Part shown: piece by piece, positions 16,750 through 33,285 of the stretch | Layout of the letters: every line of letters starts with the position of its first letter | Numbering within the stretch: position 1 is the stretch's first letter | From: Naegleria gruberi | Lineage: Eukaryota | Assembly (NCBI GenBank): GCA_000004985.1 | Contig: GG738923.1 | Length of the DNA stretch: 64,000 nt | Reading direction: 5' to 3' (one strand) | Made by a program: the position numbers and the translations under genes | Notes under the pieces: generated by a model | Told to the model about the DNA's origin: nothing | The model's input: the letters and a program-made list of their open reading frames with translations, nothing else | The model's database searches: none

Positions 16750-18388
16750 TCATCTCTTTAAGCATACTGTAATTTTCTGTTTGATAATATTAAAAAAGAG
16801 TGTGAAAAGTAAAATGGCAGATAATGCAATCATTATAAATCCAAATGATTTGAATTGGTAAATTGCATTCAGAGCTAAAACTTCTTTTCCAACTAGAAAT
16901 TGGACGAATACTTGGAATAAATTAGCCAATGCAGAGTTGAATGAAAAGATGGCTGCAAATCTGGTCAATTTGAGACCTTTTGCAATTTGTGAAAATGCCA
17001 AAACGTATAAAAATTCAAATAAGCAATGATAAATGACAAATAACAAGTAGGCAAGAAATATTGGGCATTTCCCATTCCAACTCATTACTAATAGACAAAA
17101 TCCACAAATAAAGCATAAACTAATTGCCATTAGTTTGCCTTTCCATGATTTGATCCATTTTCCTAATCTGGATGGAATCATTGTAATGAGACTTGCACAT
17201 GCATAGGCAACTGCTGTAAGAACACCATTGAAAGTCATGTCCTTGTTGAGTGTTTTGAAGAATGCTTGATAATAGGAGAGTGCTAACATGTGAACTGCTA
17301 TTCCAATAATACAGTAAATACTCCAAAATACAACTGAATAATCATCCGTATAGCATTTCTTAACTTCCATTACAAAATTGAAAGCTCTTTTGAAGAGATT
17401 AATGAAAAATTCTTTGATTTTCAATCCAATTGAATGACATTTTGAATGTTCATGTTCAGATTCTAACCCCAACTCATCCACAATTGAAATTAATTCATCC
17501 TCAGGTGTTCTACTTTCGTCAGAGTGGAATTTTGATTCTTTTGGTTGTTCTGACATGGATCTGACATAATTCTTTGGTGATGGAAAGTGAAATACTGAAG
17601 TGTACAAACATGGAATTGTACATGCAAACCCAATGTAATATAAAACATGAATTGGGACACCTAGATAGAACAGAGTTTGACCAACGATAGCTCCCAATAC
17701 TTGACCCAATAGGATACATGTTCTTGACATACTTGTCTATTTAATATTATATTATACTCAATATTGAAATAATTTCCAGAAAACTTACTAAGAATTGATA
17801 AGAAGATGGCTCACTTGAGTGATAAATCAATGCCAAATAAGTTTGATCAGTAGAGTATAATACAGCAAGTACAATCTCTGAAACCTGTAACATCCAAACT
17901 AAATCTATGCTACTGAAATATTCAATAAACATTGTTGAAATTAAACACAAAATTCCAAATGTTAAAATCCACTTGTGGCCCAACCATTTCTGTTCAGACA
18001 TGATACCAACAAGTAATTGCACAACTGGCATTGAATAAGTCCATATTGGAAAAATGTCAAAGAGTACTGCTTTTAAAGTAATCCCTTTGGAAAGTAAAAA
18101 TTCAACAAGGAATGGTTGTTGTGGATGTACGGTTCGGAAGAATGAATAGATGGCAAATGGTAAAATAATTCGAAGAGAGAGTGATGATGGTAATTTCTTT
18201 GTCTTTTTCTTGAGAGATGAAGATGTATAGAGTGGTGAATTCAAGAGGAGAAGATCTTCTTCGGAATTGTTATTAACTGAAGTCATGTCATGAGAGAATG
18301 AAGAAGAATAGGTGTGTAATTTGAATGATGATAATTTTTTCAGATTTTTCAAGTTGCTGACGTTAGTGTTAAACATTGATTCGACCAT
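16750..18388 (-). CDS. SLC19-family (reduced folate carrier/thiamine transporter-like) MFS transporter; 2 exons, 17789..18388 and 16750..17736
   Basis: Matches the conserved SLC19 N-terminal core: ...FFRTVHPQQPFLVEFLL...IFPIWTYSMPVVQLLVG.... Splicing gives ...SSYQFL|TSMSRTCILLGQVLGAIVGQ..., matching '...[24 protein letters not shown]'. There are 10 or more predicted transmembrane segments. The first true ATG (MVESMFNT) is at 18388; the ORF-track start is a GTG. Confidence 0.65.
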
Positions 18389-18455
18389 TCCAAAAAGAAA
18401 CTGTGAAAATATTTGACACACCTAATTACAATATAAATTACAATGGTTTTTTAAT

Positions 18456-23447: not shown

Positions 23448-24971
23448 TTGTTCATTACAAAAGAGAATCAAGAATCTCTTGAACGCATGAATGGGTTTCC
23501 ATCAAGTCCATTTTCCTTCAATCAATTCATTTTGGTGAGGAATTTTAAAAGCAACTTTAAAAAAATGCAAAAACAACAACAACAATTAATGAAACAAACA
23601 TTGAAGGCAGCAGTCTCCTTGAAGAAGATTAACAAATTTGGTACTGTTGTTGGTAATGTTGTTCATCTCTCGGAAAATAAGAGAAGATTTACTTCATCAC
23701 TTATTAATGGAACATCATCTTGTAGTAGTAGTAATAATAATAATAGCTTTGATAAGAGAGTGAGAGGAATTTATTTTGATTTTGGTGCTACAACACCAAC
23801 AGATCCTAGAGTACTTGATGCCATGCTTCCGTTCATGACAGAAGTTTATGGTAATCCACACTCTAGAACACACGAATTTGGTTGGGATTCTGAGAAGGCT
23901 GTCGAATTGGCTAGAAAACAAGTTGGTGATTTAATCGGAGCAAGTCCTAAGGAAATTGTATTTACAAGTGGAGCAACAGAATCGAATAATACTGCATTGA
24001 AAGGTGTTGCTCGTTTCGTAAAGGATAAGAAGAAACATATTATTACAACACAAACAGAACATAAATGTGTTTTGGATACTTGTAGACATTTAGAAGAAGA
24101 AGGATTTACAGTAACATATTTACCAGTACAAAAGAATGGATTAATTGATTTGGCAGAATTGGAAAAGGCCATTACACCAGAAACTGCTTTGGTCAGTGTC
24201 ATGTTCGTTAATAATGAAATTGGTGTGATACAACCAATCAAGGAAATTGGTGCTTTATGTAGAAAGAACAAGGTTTTATTACACACTGATGCTGCTCAAG
24301 CTTTTGGTAAAATTCCAATTAATGTTGATGATATGAATATTGATTTAATGTCAATCAGTGGTCACAAGATTTATGGTCCAAAAGGTATTGGTGCTCTCTA
24401 TGTTAGAAGAAAGCAGCCAAGAGTTAGAATTCATCCACTCATTAATGGTGGTGGTCAAGAAGGTGGTCGTAGATCAGGTACATTGGCTGCTCCATTGTGT
24501 GTTGGTTTGGGGGAAGCAGCAAGAATTGCTTCTGAAGAAATGGAAAGAGATTTAACTCATGTCACTCAATTATCTCAAAAACTTATTAGTAGCCTTAGAA
24601 CTAGATGTGAACACGTTATTTTGAATGGTGATGAAAATTTGAGATATCCTGGTAATGTTAACATTAGTTTTGAATTTGTTGAAGGCGAAAGTTTATTGAT
24701 GGCTTTGAATTCTGTCGCTTTATCATCAGGTAGTGCTTGTACTAGTGCTTCCCTTGAACCAAGCTATGTATTACGTGCTTTGGGAGTTTCTGAAGAAGTA
24801 GCTCACACATCACTTCGTTTTGGTATTGGTAGATTTACAACTGAGGAAGAAATTGATTTTGTAATTAACAAGACTGCTACTGAAGTATTAAGATTGAGAG
24901 AACTGAGTCCACTCTATGAAATGTTCAAAGAAGGTGTTGATATTTCCAAGATTCAATGGAATGAACACTAA
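23448..24971 (+). CDS. NFS1: Cysteine desulfurase NFS1/IscS (mitochondrial Fe-S cluster biogenesis); intronless, N-terminal presequence
   Basis: Colinear and highly similar to NFS1: [19 protein letters not shown]...[13 protein letters not shown]...[10 protein letters not shown]...[11 protein letters not shown]...[20 protein letters not shown]...[21 protein letters not shown]...[12 protein letters not shown]. The PLP-binding Lys and the active Cys loop are present. The true start may be the internal Met at about 23559 (MQKQQQ...). Confidence 0.9.
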
Positions 24972-25400: not shown

Positions 25401-27014
25401 ATGTCCACACAAGAGGCAACATCAACATTATCGGCAATGGAATCATTGTCTCGATACGTCAACATCTTTAACAAACTTGCCGATATTCTTGTTGGAGAGT
25501 TTCAAAATCACCCATATCGTTCATTGATTGATGTTTCAATTATTGTTTTAATTGTTTGGTATTTGATGAGCAAGAGACGTTCAGCTGTGCCACCACAAAA
25601 ACTTTCCAAGAAACAAGAAGATGAAATTATTGAAGATTGGGAACCTGTACCACTTGTTCCAACCTCTGATGATAGCAATGTTGATGCTACAATTAATGCT
25701 ATGAAGGAACATGAATATGTCGTCACTTCAGTTGCCGATGTTGAATTCACTGTTGAAGGAAAGAAGGACAAGGTTATTAACTTTGGTACTAATAACTTTT
25801 TGGGTTTTATTGGTGATAAGGATATTCATGAAAAGTGTAAGGATACTGTTCGTGAATATGGTGTTGGTAGTTGTGGTCCTCGTGGTTTCTATGGTACTAT
25901 TGATGTTCATCTTGATTTTGAAAAGTTGTGTGCCAAGTTTATGGGAACCGAAGCTTGTATTTTGTACTCTTTCGGTTTTTGTACAGTCAGTTCTGTTATT
26001 CCAGCATTTTCCAAGCGTGAAGATGTTATTCTTTGTGATGAAGCTTGTAATTATGCCATCAAGACTGGTTGTCATTTAGCCCGTTCAACTGTTGGTTACT
26101 TTAAACATAATAATGTTAAAGCTCTTGAAGATATGATGAAGGAAATTGTTGCAAATGATAATGGTGCCACTCCAAAGAATCGTCGTTTCATTGTTGTTGA
26201 AGGTGTTTATGAAAATAATGGTGATATTGCTAATTTGAAGGAAATTATTGCTTTGAAGAAGAAATATGTCGGATTTAGAATTATTCTTGATGATAGTTAT
26301 GGTGTTGGTGTTTTGGGTAAAACTGGTAGAGGAACAATTGAACACTTTGGTTTGGATATTAATGATTTTGAAATTGTTTGTGTTAACATGGAAAATTCAT
26401 TCGGATCTGTTGGTGGTGTTTGTGTTGGATCTAACATTATTGTTGATCACCAAAGATTATCTGGTGCTGGTTACTGTTTCTCTGCTTCTTTGCCTCCATA
26501 TTTGTCAACTGCTGCTATTGAAGCTATGAATAAGCTTGATACTAATCCTGATAGCTATTTGGTTCCACTCCAAAAGAATGTTACCCTCCTCTCTGAAACT
26601 CTTAACAAGAAGATTTCATTCAAGAATTCCAAGTTGGTTCTTCTCCATGAAGATAAATGTCCAATCTTCCACATTCGTCTTGCTGATGATCACCCTGCTA
26701 AGGCTGCTTTACTTGAAGCTAAGAAGCAAGTTGACCAATTCAAGTCCAAGAAGAATAAGAAGCAAATGGCTCAAGCCAGTATTCTTTTCTATGAAGAAAG
26801 AAATAAGGTTCAACAAAAGTTCAAGGATATTGTTTCTAAGGCTATTGACCAAGGAGTTGCTGTCGTTTGTCCAAATTATACACACAGAGAAATTACCTTA
26901 CCTGAACCAGGTTTGAGATTATCAGTCTCTTCCAAACATACCAAACAACACCTTGAAAAGTGTGCTGATGTTTTGTCTTCTCTTTTTGCGGAAATTTTGC
27001 CATCAAAGATGTAA
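25401..27014 (+). CDS. Serine palmitoyltransferase long-chain-base subunit 1 (LCB1/SPTLC1-like; alpha-oxoamine synthase family); intronless
   Basis: N-terminal transmembrane segment, then the class-II aminotransferase fold: ...NFLGFIGDKDIHEKCKDTVREYGVGSCGPRGFYGTIDVHLDFEKLCAKFMGTEACILYSFGF.... The LCB1-type motifs are consistent with the non-catalytic subunit. Confidence 0.8.
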   Translation: MSTQEATSTLSAMESLSRYVNIFNKLADILVGEFQNHPYRSLIDVSIIVLIVWYLMSKRRSAVPPQKLSKKQEDEIIEDWEPVPLVPTSDDSNVDATINAMKEHEYVVTSVADVEFTVEGKKDKVINFGTNNFLGFIGDKDIHEKCKDTVREYGVGSCGPRGFYGTIDVHLDFEKLCAKFMGTEACILYSFGFCTVSSVIPAFSKREDVILCDEACNYAIKTGCHLARSTVGYFKHNNVKALEDMMKEIVANDNGATPKNRRFIVVEGVYENNGDIANLKEIIALKKKYVGFRIILDDSYGVGVLGKTGRGTIEHFGLDINDFEIVCVNMENSFGSVGGVCVGSNIIVDHQRLSGAGYCFSASLPPYLSTAAIEAMNKLDTNPDSYLVPLQKNVTLLSETLNKKISFKNSKLVLLHEDKCPIFHIRLADDHPAKAALLEAKKQVDQFKSKKNKKQMAQASILFYEERNKVQQKFKDIVSKAIDQGVAVVCPNYTHREITLPEPGLRLSVSSKHTKQHLEKCADVLSSLFAEILPSKM

Positions 27015-27387: not shown

Positions 27388-28956
27388 ATGCATTCCAAAC
27401 GTACATTCTTATTGGCATGTTGCTTTGCCTTGATGTTGTGTTGTCAACTTTGGGCTGCATTCGTGCATGCTCAACAATTAGACGAAACTTCTACCTCCAA
27501 AACTTCACAAGCTTCCAGAAGTACAATTAGAGAATTCATTCTCGATCCAACTACTCGTCAAGTCATCGATCAAATGAAAATTGCAGTCAGCTCTGAACAA
27601 GAAGTTGAAATTGCTGAGAATTTCGTATTGATTGCTGCAAAATTGAGAGAAATTTATGAAACTATTCCAAAAGAAAGATTTGACGAAAGTGAAATTATTC
27701 AATTGAGAGAGGAATTATTGGAACTCATTCAATTCTTTACCAGAAAAGCCAATCGTCCAAGTGTTGACATGATGAAATATTCATTGATTCAAAGTGCTAC
27801 CGAAAGATATGTAAACGAAACTCAAAAGAAAAAAGATCTTTCTAAAAATAGTGAAGAATCTGATGCTGAATGGATCACTGCTGCCTTGAATATTGCCAGT
27901 AGTGTCATGAATATTGCAAATGACATTGGTACTTATCATGAAAAGATTTCCAAAGTTGGTAATTTCATTGCTAATCAAGTTTCTAATGGTTTGGATAAAG
28001 TTGGACTTAAGAAAGCTTCTGGATGGGCTAAAGATTTAGGAAATGGTATTTCAAAATTCTCAAATGAAAAGATTGCCCCAATTGAAAACAAAATTGCCAA
28101 GAAAATTGCACCAGTTGTCAAATCAGCTCCATTCCAAGCTGTCAGAAGAACTTTAAATGTTGTCACTGGAGTTATGAGTTTGAAATCTGGATTAAACCTG
28201 TTGGGTATGGCAAAGAATGTTAAATTACCAAAGAATTTCTCAGCCCTCAAGTCATCAATCAAAACAACCACAAAAGCTGCCAAATCACTTTTCAAGAATA
28301 AGCAAGCTCGTAGTCGTTTCTCAAGAATTGCCAAATTGACTGGAAAGAGAGCATACAGAACTTTCAAGAAGGCAGATTTAAAGACCAAGTACAAGACTGT
28401 TAAATCCTTATATGGAGGTGCTAAATCTATTAAGGGTGCTTTGACTTTTAAGAGAAATGAAAGAAAGCCAAGACAATCCAATAGAAGAAATAATCAAAAT
28501 AACAGATCTAGACAATATGGAAGAAATAGAAGAAACCAAAATGGAAGAAGAAATAACAGATCAAATGGAAGACAAAGAAACAATTCTCGTTCCACCAATA
28601 ATAATAGAAGAGGCGGTAGAAGAGGTGGCAACAGAGGTGGCAGATCAGTCAATCGTAACAATCAAAGAAGAAATAATAACAGATCACGTGGAGGACAAGG
28701 AAGAAGAAACAATGGTTCAAGAAGAGGTGGTAACAGAGGTAATACTTCAAGAAATTCTCCAAGAAGACACAACACTGGTGGCAGATCTCGTCAATCCAAT
28801 AACAATAGAAGAAGAAGCAACTCTAGACCATCTTATGGAAATAGAGGAGGTAGATCATCTTATAGAAATTCTTCACCAAGAAGATCTTCACCAAGTAGAG
28901 GATACTCTCGTGGTGGTGGATCTAGATCATCATCTCGTGGAGGTGGTAGATCATGA
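27388..28956 (+). CDS. Secreted protein with amphipathic-helical N-domain and a long Arg/Gly/Ser/Asn-rich (RGG/RS-like) repetitive tail; ends at an in-frame TGA
   Basis: Signal peptide MHSKRTFLLACCFALMLCCQLWAAFVHA. A K-rich helical region follows, then about 170 aa of (R/G/N/S)n repeats. The TGA at 28954-28956 is followed in frame by 17 more repeat codons before the TAA at 29008-29010. Confidence 0.45.
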   Translation: MHSKRTFLLACCFALMLCCQLWAAFVHAQQLDETSTSKTSQASRSTIREFILDPTTRQVIDQMKIAVSSEQEVEIAENFVLIAAKLREIYETIPKERFDESEIIQLREELLELIQFFTRKANRPSVDMMKYSLIQSATERYVNETQKKKDLSKNSEESDAEWITAALNIASSVMNIANDIGTYHEKISKVGNFIANQVSNGLDKVGLKKASGWAKDLGNGISKFSNEKIAPIENKIAKKIAPVVKSAPFQAVRRTLNVVTGVMSLKSGLNLLGMAKNVKLPKNFSALKSSIKTTTKAAKSLFKNKQARSRFSRIAKLTGKRAYRTFKKADLKTKYKTVKSLYGGAKSIKGALTFKRNERKPRQSNRRNNQNNRSRQYGRNRRNQNGRRNNRSNGRQRNNSRSTNNNRRGGRRGGNRGGRSVNRNNQRRNNNRSRGGQGRRNNGSRRGGNRGNTSRNSPRRHNTGGRSRQSNNNRRRSNSRPSYGNRGGRSSYRNSSPRRSSPSRGYSRGGGSRSSSRGGGRS

Positions 28957-29010
28957 TCTCGTGGAAGTGGTAGATCAGGATCTCGTGGTGGTCGTGGAGG
29001 AAGACGTTAA
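28480..29010 (+). repeat. Imperfect tandem coding microsatellite (AGA/GGT/AAT-rich) encoding the RGG/RS tail
   Basis: Visible periodic reuse of aga-aga-aat / ggt-ggt-aga units. This also creates a spurious acidic ORF in an alternate frame (28457..29014). Confidence 0.6.
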
Positions 29011-29085
29011 ATAAATTCTTAACACACTATTCTCTACTGATCAATGAAAAAACGAAATAGAAAGGAAAGTGATTATTTATTTAAG

Positions 29086-32000
29086 CTAAAGAGAAGAAAT
29101 AACTGCAAAGATACAATAGAACATAAACAAATAATTGACATAACCAATGCTGTTAACATCATTTGTCTTTGGTTGAGTTGAATTACCGAATGAAGCAGAT
29201 GGTTGAATTGGTTGTGTTGCATTTCCAACTGTTAATTGATTATATGGTTGAATGTCATATTTAGTGTCAAACATTGAGGATTCTGCCTTGAAGGTAATAG
29301 TTTCATTCTTCAAATTGGCAACAGGTGCATTCACTTTTGGAACAAATTCAAAAGCCAAAGTTTGTTGGTTTACCAAAACAAAGTTGACCGAAGAGAAGAA
29401 AGTTGTCAAGCTTGAAGAACTCATTCTAAACAAATTGAAATTAGCAGCAGAAGACTGAGTTGTGATATTGCTTATAAAGTTCTTATCCCAGGCGTGATTA
29501 TCATCCAATATCTTGACATGAATTAAAGTAGTTTCAGATGTTGAGAATGAAGATGTAAAAGTTGAAGGTTGACCATTTGTGATGAAACTTAAAGAAAGTT
29601 GAGTAGCCTTCAATTCCAATGTAGACATTGTAAATCTACATTTTCTATCAGAGTATAACATGATAATGGATCCATGTTGAGAAAGTAATGAAATAGACAT
29701 CTTCTCTCCCTTCAAAGATAATGAACTACTAGAAGCATAAATTGAATTCGAATCTGAGAAAGAAGGAGAAGCAACTTGACCCTTCTTATTGACATACAGA
29801 TCAATATTACAATCATCCTGGGTGGTAACTTGGAAGATAAGACCCTTAACGTTATTCAATTCATACTTGTAGTATTTTTCGTAAGCAATGTCAATGTACA
29901 TATTTCCAGACACTTCTGGATCAATTGTGAGTTGACCAATGGCTCTTGTATTAATTTTAGAGTAATCAAGACTTTGAGCAATTTCTAATTGTCTTGTAAT
30001 GGCTAAAGTGCTTTCAATGGTTAATTGAATATATCTATTAGAAGTGTCAACTTTACAAAGAGAATTAATTGTTGCAATTGGTGAAATCAAAATTGCACCA
30101 TCAGAAAGAATGACAGTTTCTAATGTGGCTAAAACCTCTGCATTATTGGACATGACATGTGCTTTAACCCAATCCAATTGGACAACTTTACCATTAGTTG
30201 AATCAATTACTCTTAAAAAGAGGTTATTCCAGTCAATTGAGCTAGAACATGGAATTGCAAAGGCACCAACTTCTGATGAGGCCAATTTCTTGACCAATGA
30301 AGGGATACCATTTAAGAGTTTGTGATTGTGAATCAAGTTAACATTTACAGATTCTGAGCTTGTTCTATTAGGTGACAAGTAAAAAGTGTCAAAAGTCGAT
30401 GGAATTGGAATTGAAATTGGTGAACTTCCAATTGAGTATAAACCACTATTCATATTCAATGATTCATCAATAGAATTTGAGAAAGAAACCTTAGCTGACT
30501 TGGTGGATGAAAGTTTAACATATGGGAAAATGGAATTCTTTGCAACTTGTTGTTCAATCAACACATTTGTAGATAAACTCGAACTAGTCAACTGAGAGGC
30601 CATATATGGATCAAATCTAATAGATTCAATTATTACTTGATTAATAGGAACCAATTGAGCTACAACAATTTGAATCTTTGGAATGCTATTTCCATAATTA
30701 TTTTCCAATGAGAATGTGAAATGATGAATTCTGGATGGTAAGATTTCAACATTTCCAGTTTGTGTTTCGATATACTGGTACTTCTTGCCCTTGGTTTGGT
30801 AAATATTGTAATTGGAAATCCAACCTTCGTATACGAGAATGTCAAAACTTCCTTTGGCTTGCAGAGTTACCACATATCTATTCGAAACTGTTTCAACAGC
30901 TTGCACAAATGTATTCAAACTCATTGTATCACGAATAATCTCAGACAATCTGACAGTTGTTTTTGGATACACCATTCTATAGGCAATTGCATTTACAAAG
31001 TTGATATTAGCTCCAGAATATCCATAAATAGTAAAGTTTCTTGGAGCATTTTGAGAATAGTAATAATAGTAACCATTTTCAATCAAGGGAATAAATTGGA
31101 ATGGAAGACCTGTGATAGAACGATCAGATCTAAATGCCACAAAGTTATTGTCAAGGAAGGTCTTTTGGTGGTCAAAGTCAAATGTCGTAGTTGTTCCTAT
31201 TTGATAAGAACCTGTTGGTACATCCCTAAATCTGACAACTCTATCAGTAATATGAATATATGCAGAGACAATTCCACTTTCAAATATTTTAGTTGTAACT
31301 GTTGGTGCACTACCATAAACATTTGACAAATTAAAAATCTTAACCAAAATGTCAATATTAGACCACCAATGATCTTCAATTATCTTCACACTAATATAAT
31401 AGTTTGGAGTGAATGTAAAGGTACATCCAAATTTACAATTAATTGAGTCAGTTGAGTATTTGTAACCACTTGGTGGAGATGTACCAGTTGAGTATTCGAT
31501 GAAGTAATAGTTATCACTTGGTGCAATTTTAATTTCAAAGTAAAAGCTAACCATATCACTAATACCTTTCAGTGAAGGGATAGCATTTCCAGGTGAGTAG
31601 ACAGAATTGCTATCTACTGCTTTGTATGAAGAACTTTGTAAAGAATAACTTCCACTCAATAATGGAATAGCTGTCTTTTGAATGAAAGTCAATTCTTTGT
31701 CAACTTTGAGAATTTCATTGTTGATGGTAACATCGACTTGATAGGAAGATTCTACCTTACCAAATAATTGATACTCTGATAGGGATGCGGCTAATGCTTG
31801 AGCAGAGAGTTCAGCAATCAACTTGGGTTTGATTGCAACAGTTGTTGTAACCAAACTCCAGATTGTAATGTCAAAAACAGGATAAAGAGAAAATGTAGTG
31901 GTAGAAGAAGCTTCTAATCTTAAACCAGGAGAGCTGGATGACCATTCGAAACCTGCTCCAGTTCTAACAGGTCCATAACCAGTACCAGAAGCATATTGAT

Positions 32001-33285
32001 AACCAAAGTATTGTTCATAGCTCGCCTTAAAGTTTCTACTATATTCCAATAGACCAGAAGCTTGAATATCAAAGCTGTAGGCCAATTTTGGAACAATATC
32101 GACCCAGACAGGGATACCATAAATATTAAACTTGAAATTGATGGTTGAAAGTGTTGCTAGAATATCACCTTTAGAATAACTTAAACTTTTGCTTAAAGAT
32201 GCTTTGAGTGTTGCATCACCTTCAATCTTACCACCAATCAATGCTTGTGCTTTAGTGATTGAGAGCCATGACCATTCAAATTCAACTCTAAACTCTGCAT
32301 TCATGTAGACATAACACTTTTCACAAACAACCTTGAAATCTCCATAACTGGTTGAAGTTGAATAAAGAGGAAGAGATTCTTGTTTGACAGAACCTGTATT
32401 GACATCATAGTTGAAACCAACAGCGTAGAGTCGTTGTGTCCATGAAGAACGAGAATTCTTCTTTGCATCAGTTGAGTAGAGGGAAGTGAAATTCTTGTCA
32501 GTTTCTCTGGCAACAGGAGTTGACTTGTATGAAAGTTGACCATTCAAGAAGAGTTCGTTAGTCTTTAACATTCTAACATTGAAACTGATCTTGACCATTT
32601 CTCCTTGTTCTAATAAGATTGATCTAGACAAGACAAGGAATGCGAGTTGATCTTCTTTGCCATATTGGTCAATTGTGGAGCTGCCAAAACAATTCCACTT
32701 CTTACCAATAACCATACGAGTACCTGGAATCCACTTACGAGCAGTAAAGTGTCCATTAGCAAAATCAACTTGAATAGAACCATCTTCTTTACCACATTTG
32801 ACATCCCATACACTTTCTTCTTGATCAAGAAAGGCGACACCTGTCAACATGTTTGCCTCAAAGGAATATGAATGAAGTGATCCATCTTGGATGAAGTTGG
32901 CATGTTCATTCAATGATACATAATCTACACCTTCTACGAATAGCTTTCTAACATTTCTTATGTTAGAATTGGTTTCGTGTTGTTGGATTAGTTTTCTTGA
33001 AACAACTTCAGAGTGTGAATAGTGCTCAGTGGAGAAGGAGTATGGATCCTCTTCTCTTACACGATGCAATTGCTGAATAGTTTCGTATGGATGCATGGTT
33101 GGTGGTGTGAAAGGAATATTCTTTGACTTTCCAATAAGAATATTGAAAGAATCATCAGAATTGGAGGTTGTGCTTTCATGACTAAACATGCGCTTTCTTG
33201 CAAACTGAAGTGTTGTATCAGAGTGTACAACTCTCATACAAGCAGCCAAGCAAACAATGAATAGAACAAACACTATAGTTTTCAT
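29086..33285 (-). CDS. Very large (1399 aa) intronless secreted protein, beta-rich S/T/Y/N composition, C-terminal hydrophobic tail; unknown function (adhesin-like)
   Basis: Continuous 4.2-kb ORF. N-terminal signal peptide MKTIVFVLFIVCLAACMRVVHS and C-terminal hydrophobic YLFMFYCIFAVISSL (possible GPI anchor or TM). No recognisable catalytic motifs. Confidence 0.5.
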   Translation of the reverse strand: MKTIVFVLFIVCLAACMRVVHSDTTLQFARKRMFSHESTTSNSDDSFNILIGKSKNIPFTPPTMHPYETIQQLHRVREEDPYSFSTEHYSHSEVVSRKLIQQHETNSNIRNVRKLFVEGVDYVSLNEHANFIQDGSLHSYSFEANMLTGVAFLDQEESVWDVKCGKEDGSIQVDFANGHFTARKWIPGTRMVIGKKWNCFGSSTIDQYGKEDQLAFLVLSRSILLEQGEMVKISFNVRMLKTNELFLNGQLSYKSTPVARETDKNFTSLYSTDAKKNSRSSWTQRLYAVGFNYDVNTGSVKQESLPLYSTSTSYGDFKVVCEKCYVYMNAEFRVEFEWSWLSITKAQALIGGKIEGDATLKASLSKSLSYSKGDILATLSTINFKFNIYGIPVWVDIVPKLAYSFDIQASGLLEYSRNFKASYEQYFGYQYASGTGYGPVRTGAGFEWSSSSPGLRLEASSTTTFSLYPVFDITIWSLVTTTVAIKPKLIAELSAQALAASLSEYQLFGKVESSYQVDVTINNEILKVDKELTFIQKTAIPLLSGSYSLQSSSYKAVDSNSVYSPGNAIPSLKGISDMVSFYFEIKIAPSDNYYFIEYSTGTSPPSGYKYSTDSINCKFGCTFTFTPNYYISVKIIEDHWWSNIDILVKIFNLSNVYGSAPTVTTKIFESGIVSAYIHITDRVVRFRDVPTGSYQIGTTTTFDFDHQKTFLDNNFVAFRSDRSITGLPFQFIPLIENGYYYYYSQNAPRNFTIYGYSGANINFVNAIAYRMVYPKTTVRLSEIIRDTMSLNTFVQAVETVSNRYVVTLQAKGSFDILVYEGWISNYNIYQTKGKKYQYIETQTGNVEILPSRIHHFTFSLENNYGNSIPKIQIVVAQLVPINQVIIESIRFDPYMASQLTSSSLSTNVLIEQQVAKNSIFPYVKLSSTKSAKVSFSNSIDESLNMNSGLYSIGSSPISIPIPSTFDTFYLSPNRTSSESVNVNLIHNHKLLNGIPSLVKKLASSEVGAFAIPCSSSIDWNNLFLRVIDSTNGKVVQLDWVKAHVMSNNAEVLATLETVILSDGAILISPIATINSLCKVDTSNRYIQLTIESTLAITRQLEIAQSLDYSKINTRAIGQLTIDPEVSGNMYIDIAYEKYYKYELNNVKGLIFQVTTQDDCNIDLYVNKKGQVASPSFSDSNSIYASSSSLSLKGEKMSISLLSQHGSIIMLYSDRKCRFTMSTLELKATQLSLSFITNGQPSTFTSSFSTSETTLIHVKILDDNHAWDKNFISNITTQSSAANFNLFRMSSSSLTTFFSSVNFVLVNQQTLAFEFVPKVNAPVANLKNETITFKAESSMFDTKYDIQPYNQLTVGNATQPIQPSASFGNSTQPKTNDVNSIGYVNYLFMFYCIFAVISSL

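What the first reader, a model, noticed from the sequence alone, without database searches (positions are those of the whole stretch)
27388..29010. Secreted RGG/RS-repeat protein interrupted by an in-frame TGA inside the repeat array
A signal-peptide protein has a K-rich helical body and about 170 aa of Arg/Gly/Asn/Ser repeats. RGG/RS tails are normally nuclear RNA-binding features, so secretion is unusual. The ORF stops at TGA 28954-28956, but the same repeat continues in frame for 17 more codons to the TAA at 29010. The neighbouring repeat unit reads 'aga tca tca tct cgt' where this one reads 'aga tca tga tct cgt', so the stop looks like a single C→G change (TCA→TGA). Options are a recent nonsense mutation, a sequencing error, or programmed read-through.
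Basis: seen in the sequence. Interest (0 to 1): 0.5.

Follow-up and report, generated by a model that had tools for sequence, protein, structure and literature searches.

The report
Premature TGA in Naegleria secreted protein
In the amoeba Naegleria gruberi, a single-base change has put a stop codon 17 codons before the original end of a gene for a secreted, highly basic protein; this is most likely an ordinary recent mutation and not a recoding signal.

Summary
The window is Naegleria gruberi nuclear DNA. The ORF 27388-28956 is the annotated hypothetical protein NAEGRDRAFT_82053 (522 aa). After its TGA (28954-56), 17 more in-frame codons, all Ser/Arg/Gly, run to TAA 29008-10.

The new evidence comes from relatives. 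The N. fowleri and N. lovaniensis orthologues have no internal stop and both end ...RGGRR-TAA. The N. gruberi extension also ends ...GRGGRR-TAA. The TAA is therefore the ancestral stop and the TGA is derived.

The source codon is ambiguous. The unit before reads TCA and the unit after reads GGA, and each is one base from TGA.

Rejected alternatives:
- Reassigned code: another conserved gene in the window ends on TGA.
- Selenocysteine: no SECIS element was found.
- An intron removing the stop: the candidate splice sites are poor.
- Family-wide read-through: other members stop on TAA directly after GRR.

No independent copy of the N. gruberi allele could be found. A real recent nonsense change (my preference), a reference error and leaky read-through therefore cannot be separated here.

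The signal peptide plus basic low-complexity tail is a conserved design. It defines an unnamed protein family found so far only in Heterolobosea, the amoeboflagellate group that includes Naegleria and Acrasis. Interest is low to moderate.

The parts
27388..28956 (+). Annotated single-exon CDS of NAEGRDRAFT_82053 (522 aa), ending on TGA
   Evidence: ORF. 100% identity over the full length to the N. gruberi protein EFC36941.1 / XP_002669685.1 / D2W1X3.
27388..27471 (+). Predicted cleavable signal peptide (aa 1-28: MHSKR, hydrophobic core, VHA|QQ)
   Evidence: Highest hydrophobicity window of the protein. The same n/h/c layout, with small residues at -3 and -1, is seen in the orthologues and in 10 or more family members. 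This was judged by eye from the sequences; no SignalP run was possible.
27547..28446 (+). All-helical core and Lys-rich helices (aa 54-353). Includes the family motifs IGTYHEKISKVGNF and KIAPVVKSxxFQAVRRTLNVV.
28456..28953 (+). Disordered polycationic Arg/Asn/Gly/Ser tail (aa 357-522)
   Evidence: Composition and pI 12. pLDDT below 45 and no secondary structure.
28906..29010 (+). Four tandem units of about 24 nt (TCT CGT GGx GGT GGT AGA TCA NNN), covering the TGA and the extension
   Evidence: Tandem Repeats Finder: period 24, 3.5 copies, 85% matches. Unit-by-unit listing.
28954..28956 (+). Derived in-frame TGA. The same position reads TCA in the unit before and GGA in the unit after.
   Evidence: The orthologues have no stop before their terminal RGGRR-TAA.
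28948..28959 (.). Perfect 12-nt palindrome AGATCATGATCT, which exists only because of the TGA
   Evidence: The equivalent 12-mers at 28924-28935 and 28972-28983 are quasi-palindromes with one mismatched pair, each one base away from this sequence.
28957..29007 (+). In-frame 17-codon continuation SRGSGRSGSRGGRGGRR, the former C-terminus
   Evidence: It is 100% R/S/G, against at most 50% after the stops of other ORFs. Its end, GGRR, matches both orthologues.
29008..29010 (+). TAA, the inferred ancestral stop codon of the gene
   Evidence: N. fowleri, N. lovaniensis, P0024 and P0005 all stop on TAA directly after ...GRR.

Best explanation
This is a genuine, evolutionarily recent single-base nonsense substitution in N. 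gruberi NEG-M. It may be fixed in the strain or be one allele of a heterozygous diploid.

The change is either TCA>TGA or GGA>TGA, in the second-to-last 24-nt repeat unit of the tail of NAEGRDRAFT_82053. I infer that release factor terminates translation at UGA. That gives a 522-aa precursor, about 494 aa after signal-peptide removal, which lacks the last 17 residues. The lost residues include the RGGRR C-terminus that both orthologues and one distant family member keep.

The downstream 51 nt still looks like coding sequence because too little time has passed for it to decay. A small amount of ordinary near-cognate read-through of UGA would make some full-length 540-aa protein, but nothing shows that this is programmed.

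The protein belongs to an unnamed family found so far only in Heterolobosea. It has a signal peptide, a helical-bundle core with Lys-rich helices and a polycationic disordered tail. I infer that it enters the secretory or endolysosomal pathway and binds polyanionic targets such as bacterial surfaces, acidic glycans, nucleic acids or membranes. That function is not shown.
For: Shown:
- The orthologues P0002 (N. fowleri) and P0003 (N. lovaniensis) run without a stop to ...RGGRR-TAA, and the N. gruberi extension ends ...GRGGRR-TAA.
- The 24-nt repeat runs through the stop.
- The neighbouring units carry TCA and GGA at that codon.
- The extension is 100% R/S/G, unlike the sequence after any other stop in the window.
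- TGA works as a terminator here. The folate-carrier gene matches its Pfam model to position 410 of 412 and then ends on TGA at 16750-16752. No other ORF of 180 aa or more gains a coding-like 3' extension when TGA is read as sense.
- Family tails differ widely in length and composition, for example 518, 536 and 540 aa among the orthologues. Losing 17 of about 183 tail residues is therefore plausibly tolerated.
- Naegleria is described as a mainly heterozygous diploid (PMC9928731), so real allelic single-base differences are expected.

Inferred:
- The change turns a quasi-palindrome into a perfect palindrome. From my own knowledge, that is a recognised signature of template-switch mutation.
Against: - No independent copy of the N. 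gruberi locus was found, so a consensus error in the reference assembly is not excluded.
- The C-terminal GRR/GGRR recurs in P0024, whose tail is otherwise K/A/S-rich. From composition alone the chance of that ending is about 5e-5. This suggests the motif matters, so its loss might be selected against. That slightly favours an error, a heterozygous allele or read-through over a fixed truncation.
- Perfect preservation of the 51 nt is equally expected if the stop is not real or is read through.
Confidence: 0.55

Rival explanations
1. The TGA is a sequencing or consensus error in the reference assembly. The real gene reads TCA or GGA and encodes a 540-aa protein ending in RGGRR, like its orthologues.
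For: The extension is perfectly intact and ends exactly as the orthologues do. The site lies in a tandem repeat and inside a 12-nt palindrome. From my own knowledge, such contexts can disturb base calling and consensus building. No second, independent sequence confirms the G/T.
Against: A single-base miscall that happens to create one of three stop codons in a gene of about 1.6 kb is a rare event in a finished consensus. From my own knowledge, real single-base differences are much commoner than consensus errors in a heterozygous diploid (PMC9928731). The rest of the window shows no sign of poor quality: 28 other long ORFs are intact.
Confidence: 0.27
2. The UGA is read through at a functionally meaningful rate. 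The gene then makes two isoforms: a 522-aa form, and a 540-aa form that carries the conserved RGGRR C-terminus.
For: The downstream frame, codon style and C-terminal motif are preserved. From my own knowledge, UGA is the leakiest stop codon in eukaryotes. UGA is rare as a stop in this window: one bona fide case among about 28 genes. RNA around the stop folds somewhat better than shuffled controls (z = -2.0).
Against: The context UGA-UCU matches neither of the known leaky contexts UGA-CUAG or CARYYA (sequence; the contexts are from my own knowledge). Neither orthologue has a stop at this place. Family members P0024 and P0005 end on TAA, followed at once by non-repeat sequence, so there is no phylogenetic conservation of a read-through stop. 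The z-score is weak, and the fold is simply pairing between repeat units. A recent mutation explains the preserved extension equally well.
Confidence: 0.08
3. The UGA encodes selenocysteine.
For: N. gruberi has the selenocysteine machinery (PMC4561486, citing da Silva et al. 2013).
Against: Rfam gives no SECIS match at E <= 10 anywhere in 28700-29700. None of the downstream AUGA sites lies in a SECIS-like hairpin. Only 75 nt separate the TAA from the stop of the convergent gene. The orthologues have no Cys or Sec at the aligned place, which is a low-complexity Ser/Gly position and not a redox site.
Confidence: 0.01
4. A short spliceosomal intron removes the TGA from the mRNA.
For: N. gruberi has very short introns: a 52-nt intron sits in the folate-carrier gene of this window. 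In-frame GT..AG pairs spanning the stop do exist. For example, 28946-28999 (54 nt) would yield ...SRGGGRR.
Against: The best 5' site is GTAGAT and the candidates are only 48-55% A+T. The five real introns examined start GTAAGT, GTATGT or GTGAGT and are 67-83% A+T. GT and AG are unavoidable in a GGT/AGA-rich repeat. The unspliced extension already reproduces the orthologous C-terminus.
Confidence: 0.02
5. The organism uses a genetic code in which TGA is a sense codon.
For: TAA dominates as the stop codon in the window, and TGA is rare.
Against: The conserved folate-carrier gene ends on TGA with its Pfam domain complete. ORFs of 1399, 1083 and 1077 aa are open under the standard code, and no other ORF of 180 aa or more gains a coding-like 3' extension when TGA is read as sense. 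Trp is encoded by TGG in these genes.
Confidence: 0.01

Closest known systems
Recent C-terminal nonsense polymorphism (a premature stop near the 3' end of a gene that leaves an intact 'ghost' coding tail)
   Same: A single-base change creates a stop. The downstream frame is still open and coding-like. The orthologues continue to the downstream stop. Only about 3% of the protein is lost, from a variable low-complexity region.
   Different: Population or read data are lacking, so it is unknown whether the change is fixed, heterozygous or an artefact. The lost segment carries a C-terminal motif (GGRR) that recurs in the family.
Programmed stop-codon read-through (for example UGA-CUAG genes of animals, or viral leaky stops)
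   Same: An in-frame UGA is followed by a conserved-looking extension that ends at a second stop.
   Different: There is no known stimulatory context, the stop is not conserved in orthologues or paralogues, and there is no convincing downstream structure.
RGG/RG-motif (GAR) and RS-domain RNA-binding proteins such as nucleolin, fibrillarin, FUS and SR proteins
   Same: The tail is a disordered region rich in Arg, Gly and Ser, with 10 RGG and about 25 RS/SR dipeptides.
   Different: There is no RRM, KH or any other Pfam domain. An N-terminal signal peptide is conserved across the family. The tail is also 22% Asn. In relatives the tail composition drifts to K/A/S-rich, P-rich or S-rich, so what is kept is basic charge and not the RGG motif.
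Unnamed Heterolobosea family: NAEGRDRAFT_53406, _70206, _63440, _48300 and _52385, FDP41_008900, C9374_003269, C9374_008815, and Acrasis kona AKO1_006519 and AKO1_006399
   Same: The protein shares the signal peptide, the conserved helical core motifs and the basic low-complexity tail. A profile search gave 24 hits at E <= 1e-3 among 1.84 billion representative proteins.
   Different: It is the only member examined whose tail is cut by an internal stop with the ancestral ending still readable downstream.

Membership tests
Unnamed Heterolobosea secreted helical/basic-tail family | Conserved core with the motifs IGTY(H/S)xKxSK and KIAPVVKSKxFQxVRxxLNVV | tested here: met
   Profile search: 24 hits at E <= 1e-3, and the target scores 3.7e-144. 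Invariant columns.
Unnamed Heterolobosea secreted helical/basic-tail family | N-terminal signal peptide | tested here: met
   Hydrophobic N-terminus with small residues at -3 and -1, in the target and in P0002-P0004, P0007, P0011, P0012, P0015-P0019, P0021 and P0024. This was read from the sequences; no dedicated predictor was available.
Unnamed Heterolobosea secreted helical/basic-tail family | Basic low-complexity C-terminal tail, ending in GRR/GGRR in the orthologue group | tested here: met
   The tail has pI 12. The GGRR ending is present only in the post-TGA extension.
RGG/GAR-motif RNA-binding proteins | Clustered RGG/RG repeats | tested here: met
   10 RGG and 13 RG in the 183-residue tail plus extension.
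RGG/GAR-motif RNA-binding proteins | An accompanying RNA-binding or nucleolar domain (RRM, KH, fibrillarin and the like) and a nucleo-cytoplasmic location | tested here: not met
   No Pfam domain in the target or in 20 family members. A conserved signal peptide points to the secretory pathway. Localisation itself was not tested.
SR proteins | One or two N-terminal RRMs plus an RS domain | tested here: not met
   No RRM. RS/SR dipeptides are present but are mixed with Asn and Gly.
Eukaryotic selenoproteins | SECIS element in the 3' UTR | tested here: not met
   No SECIS family in Rfam at E <= 10 in 28700-29700. No AUGA...GA hairpin.
Eukaryotic selenoproteins | Cys or Sec at the aligned position in homologues | tested here: not met
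   The orthologues have a Ser/Gly/Arg repeat there, with no Cys.
Programmed stop-codon read-through genes | A stop codon conserved in orthologues together with a conserved extension | tested here: not met
   The orthologues have no internal stop. Family members P0024 and P0005 end on TAA, followed by non-repeat sequence.
Programmed stop-codon read-through genes | A stimulatory 3' context or structure | tested here: inconclusive
   The context UGA-UCU-CGU matches no known motif (motifs from my own knowledge). The local fold has z = -2.0 and comes from repeat self-pairing.
Programmed stop-codon read-through genes | Measured translation beyond the stop | not testable with these tools
   This needs ribosome profiling, tagging or proteomics.
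Variant nuclear genetic code with UGA as a sense codon | In-frame UGA at conserved positions of ordinary genes, and UGA not used as a terminator | tested here: not met
   The folate-carrier gene ends on TGA with its domain complete. The other long ORFs need no TGA read-through.

The most novel reading that the evidence does not exclude
N. gruberi uses leaky decoding of a rare UGA to make two forms of a secreted polycationic protein. The shorter, major form lacks the family's recurrent C-terminal RGGRR motif, and a minor extended form carries it. The motif might act as a sorting, processing or binding signal. If so, read-through would tune the protein's fate, and this would be the first stop-codon read-through gene described in Heterolobosea.
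Probability: 0.07. Interest if true: 0.55.

Novelty: new member of a known kind. Interest (0 to 1): 0.25.

Why it matters
If the TGA is real, it is a small, clean example of how low-complexity tails of lineage-specific secreted proteins change length, caught before the abandoned coding sequence has decayed. It also flags a reference gene model (NAEGRDRAFT_82053) whose C-terminus may be 18 residues (17 plus the recoded position) too short. If the TGA is an error, the annotation should be corrected to 540 aa.

The wider by-product is modest. It defines an uncharacterised family in Naegleria and Acrasis, which includes the pathogen N. fowleri. Members have a signal peptide, a helical core and a polycationic tail, and several end in GRR or GGRR. 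The family may be worth testing for roles in prey killing, adhesion or cyst biology.

None of this changes current understanding unless read-through is shown.

Tried and rejected
- **Independent copies of the allele.** Exact-protein look-ups of the 522-aa and 575-aa forms and of P0001 found nothing. Look-ups of neighbouring genes also found nothing. Exact look-ups of S/G/R/W read-through variants among about 15 billion proteins found none.
- **Metagenome scans.** A 29-mer allowing any base at 28955 had 0 matches. A scan for relatives of the core confirmed none.
- **Protein search with the tail alone.** It returned nothing, not even the protein itself, so it is uninformative because of the low complexity.
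- **Selenocysteine.** Rfam and a manual AUGA/hairpin scan were both negative.
- **Intron removing the stop.** All GT..AG pairs were enumerated and only weak sites were found.
- **Variant code.** Rejected because of the TGA-terminated folate-carrier gene.
- **Literature.** No paper mentions any accession of this protein or its orthologues. The N. gruberi genome papers were not held.

Full report
**What the window is.** The window is about 33% G+C with densely packed long ORFs. The target ORF is 100% identical over 522 aa to the Naegleria gruberi hypothetical protein NAEGRDRAFT_82053 (EFC36941.1, XP_002669685.1, UniProt D2W1X3). Its neighbours are ordinary eukaryotic genes. They include a class I/II aminotransferase-family (PF00155) gene at 25401-27014, which I read as a serine palmitoyltransferase-like enzyme. 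There is also a class V aminotransferase (PF00266) gene at 23448-24971, which I read as a cysteine desulfurase-like enzyme, and a dynamin-family GTPase.

**The observation.** The ORF starts at ATG 27388 and ends at TGA 28954-28956. The same frame then continues for 17 codons (SRGSGRSGSRGGRGGRR) to TAA 29008-29010.

- The N-terminus has a short basic stretch, a hydrophobic core of about 21 residues and a VHA|QQ site. The orthologues start at the equivalent Met, so this is the true N-terminus.
- The body (aa 29-356) is 13% Lys with pI 10.
- The tail (aa 357-522) is R 30%, N 22%, G 17% and S 17% with pI 12. It holds 10 RGG and about 25 RS/SR dipeptides.
- Tandem Repeats Finder reports a 24-nt array at 28906-28992 that runs through the stop.
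- The extension consists only of R, S and G. After the stops of 28 other ORFs in the window, the in-frame sequence is never more than 50% R/S/G and usually hits another stop within a few codons.

**Key new evidence: relatives.** Four proteins matched in the first search: the target itself, N. fowleri FDP41_008900 (536 aa), N. lovaniensis C9374_003269 (518 aa) and the N. gruberi paralogue NAEGRDRAFT_53406 (482 aa).

I fetched the two orthologous loci and mapped their exons. Both genes have three exons and no internal stop, and both end ...RGGRR followed by TAA and then non-repeat sequence. The N. gruberi extension ends ...GRGGRR followed by TAA.

The TAA at 29008-29010 is therefore the ancestral stop, and the TGA is a derived interruption 18 codons upstream of it.

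**Which base changed.** The four terminal repeat units are:

| Coordinates | Sequence |
|---|---|
| 28906-28932 | TCT CGT GGT GGT GGA TCT AGA TCA TCA |
| 28933-28956 | TCT CGT GGA GGT GGT AGA TCA TGA |
| 28957-28980 | TCT CGT GGA AGT GGT AGA TCA GGA |
| 28981-29010 | TCT CGT GGT GGT CGT GGA GGA AGA CGT TAA |

The codon in the TGA position is TCA in the unit before and GGA in the unit after. TCA>TGA (C>G at 28955) and GGA>TGA (G>T at 28954) are therefore equally parsimonious.

Either change turns a 12-nt quasi-palindrome into the perfect palindrome AGATCATGATCT at 28948-28959. From general knowledge, correction of quasi-palindromes is a known template-switch mutation signature. Palindromes can also trouble base calling. 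This detail is suggestive but cuts both ways.

**Alternatives tested and rejected.**

1. *Variant genetic code.* The two-exon folate-carrier gene (18421-17789 and 17736-16750, minus strand) matches its Pfam model to position 410 of 412 and then ends on TGA. Long ORFs of 1399, 1083 and 1077 aa need no TGA decoding. TGA is a working, if rare, terminator here.
2. *Selenocysteine.* N. gruberi has the machinery (PMC4561486). However, Rfam finds no SECIS element at E <= 10 in 28700-29700, and no downstream AUGA sits in a suitable hairpin. Only 75 nt separate the TAA from the stop of the convergent gene at 29086. The aligned position in the orthologues is a Ser/Gly/Arg repeat.
3. *Intron.* N. gruberi does have tiny introns, such as the 52-nt GTAAGT...AATAG intron at 17788-17737. 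In-frame GT..AG pairs spanning the stop exist. Their best 5' site is GTAGAT and they are 48-55% A+T. The five real introns start GTAAGT, GTATGT or GTGAGT and are 67-83% A+T.
4. *Family-wide read-through.* Two more distant members whose DNA I could fetch end GRR-TAA, followed immediately by non-repeat sequence. These are P0024 from a Logan assembly and P0005 from an ENA assembly.
5. *Read-through stimulators.* The context UGA-UCU matches no known leaky motif. The local RNA fold is only marginally better than shuffles (z = -2.0) and reflects pairing between repeat units.

**What cannot be resolved here.** I found no second, independent sequence of this N. gruberi locus.

- Exact look-ups of the annotated and alternative-start proteins failed.
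- Look-ups of conceptual read-through variants with S, G, R or W found nothing among about 15 billion proteins.
- A metagenome DNA scan and a metagenome relative scan found nothing.
- A tail-only protein search is blind because of the low complexity.

A real mutation, a reference error and read-through therefore all remain possible. I weight them about 0.55, 0.27 and 0.08.

Real single-base differences are expected in a heterozygous diploid (PMC9928731), and from general knowledge they are commoner than consensus errors. The rest of the window shows no damaged ORFs. Nothing positive supports programmed recoding.

**What the protein is.** A profile of the core searched against 1.84 billion representative proteins found only 24 hits at E <= 1e-3. 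The named hits are all from Naegleria gruberi (at least six paralogues), N. lovaniensis, N. fowleri and Acrasis kona. The rest come from unnamed ENA, Logan and JGI contigs.

- Full-length members share an N-terminal signal peptide and a helical core with near-invariant motifs (IGTYxxKxSK, KIAPVVKSKxFQxVRxxLNVV).
- They also share Lys-rich helices and a basic low-complexity tail whose composition varies. It can be RGG/RS/N-rich, S-rich, K/A-rich or P-rich.
- There is no Pfam family and no relative in the PDB by sequence.

The combination of a signal peptide and an RGG/RS tail is therefore a conserved design of a lineage-specific family, not an annotation accident. The protein is not a member of the RGG or SR RNA-binding families, because it has no RNA-binding domain.

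I infer, without direct evidence, that it is a secreted or lumenal polycation that binds anionic surfaces such as bacterial prey, glycans, nucleic acids or membranes.

**The C-terminal motif.** The three orthologues end in GGRR, counting the N. gruberi extension. P0005 ends in GRR. P0024 ends in NRGGRR although its tail is otherwise K/A/S-rich, and from composition alone that ending has a chance of about 5e-5. This hints that the extreme C-terminus is under selection. The hint is the main reason to keep read-through and heterozygosity on the table.

**Verdict.** The best reading is an ordinary recent nonsense substitution, or one allele of it, near the 3' end of a fast-evolving tail. Novelty is low: this is a new instance of a known kind of event, in an uncharacterised family. 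Interest is 0.25. The most novel reading still open, functional UGA read-through, has a probability of about 0.07.

Noticed in passing
window 28948-28959: The stop codon completes a perfect 12-nt palindrome, AGATCATGATCT. The equivalent 12-mers in the neighbouring repeat units (28924-28935 and 28972-28983) are quasi-palindromes one base away from it. This could reflect template-switch mutation, or it could be a base-calling trouble spot.
   Followed up: partly
window 16750-18421 (- strand): A reduced-folate-carrier gene in two exons is split by a 52-nt intron (17788-17737, GTAAGT...AATAG, 83% A+T). It is the only other ORF of 180 aa or more in the window that ends on TGA (16750-16752). About 25 end on TAA and 3 on TAG.
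   Followed up: yes
window 29086-33285 (- strand): A convergent neighbour encodes a 1399-aa protein with an N-terminal signal peptide and a hydrophobic C-terminus. It has no Pfam match. Its stop lies only 75 nt from the TAA of the target gene, so the two 3' UTRs must be very short or must overlap.
   Followed up: partly
window 28457-29014 (+ strand, another frame): A 185-aa acidic ORF (E/D/V/I-rich) overlaps the tail in a shifted frame. It is a by-product of the AGA/GGT/GAA-rich repeat codons and not a gene.
   Followed up: no
L001 6001-7979 and L002 6001-7831, compared with window 27388-29010: The N. fowleri and N. lovaniensis orthologues each have two introns (177 and 194 nt; 190 and 87 nt), while the N. 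gruberi gene is a single exon. Their flanking genes (LMBR1 and a protein of about 1000 aa upstream) differ from the N. gruberi neighbours, so local synteny is not kept.
   Followed up: partly
family members P0004, P0005, P0010, P0012, P0024 (L003 4069-4158, L004 2790-2879): Many family members end in Gly followed by basic residues (GRR, GGRR, RRGK, RRGGK). From general knowledge this resembles dibasic-processing and amidation signals of secretory peptides, and the tails are full of RR pairs. I did not test whether the tails are proteolytically processed.
   Followed up: no
cluster of P0008: The N. gruberi model NAEGRDRAFT_52385 is 1822 aa, but it clusters with 302-aa ENA and Logan proteins of this family. 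The reference model may be a fusion of neighbouring genes.
   Followed up: no
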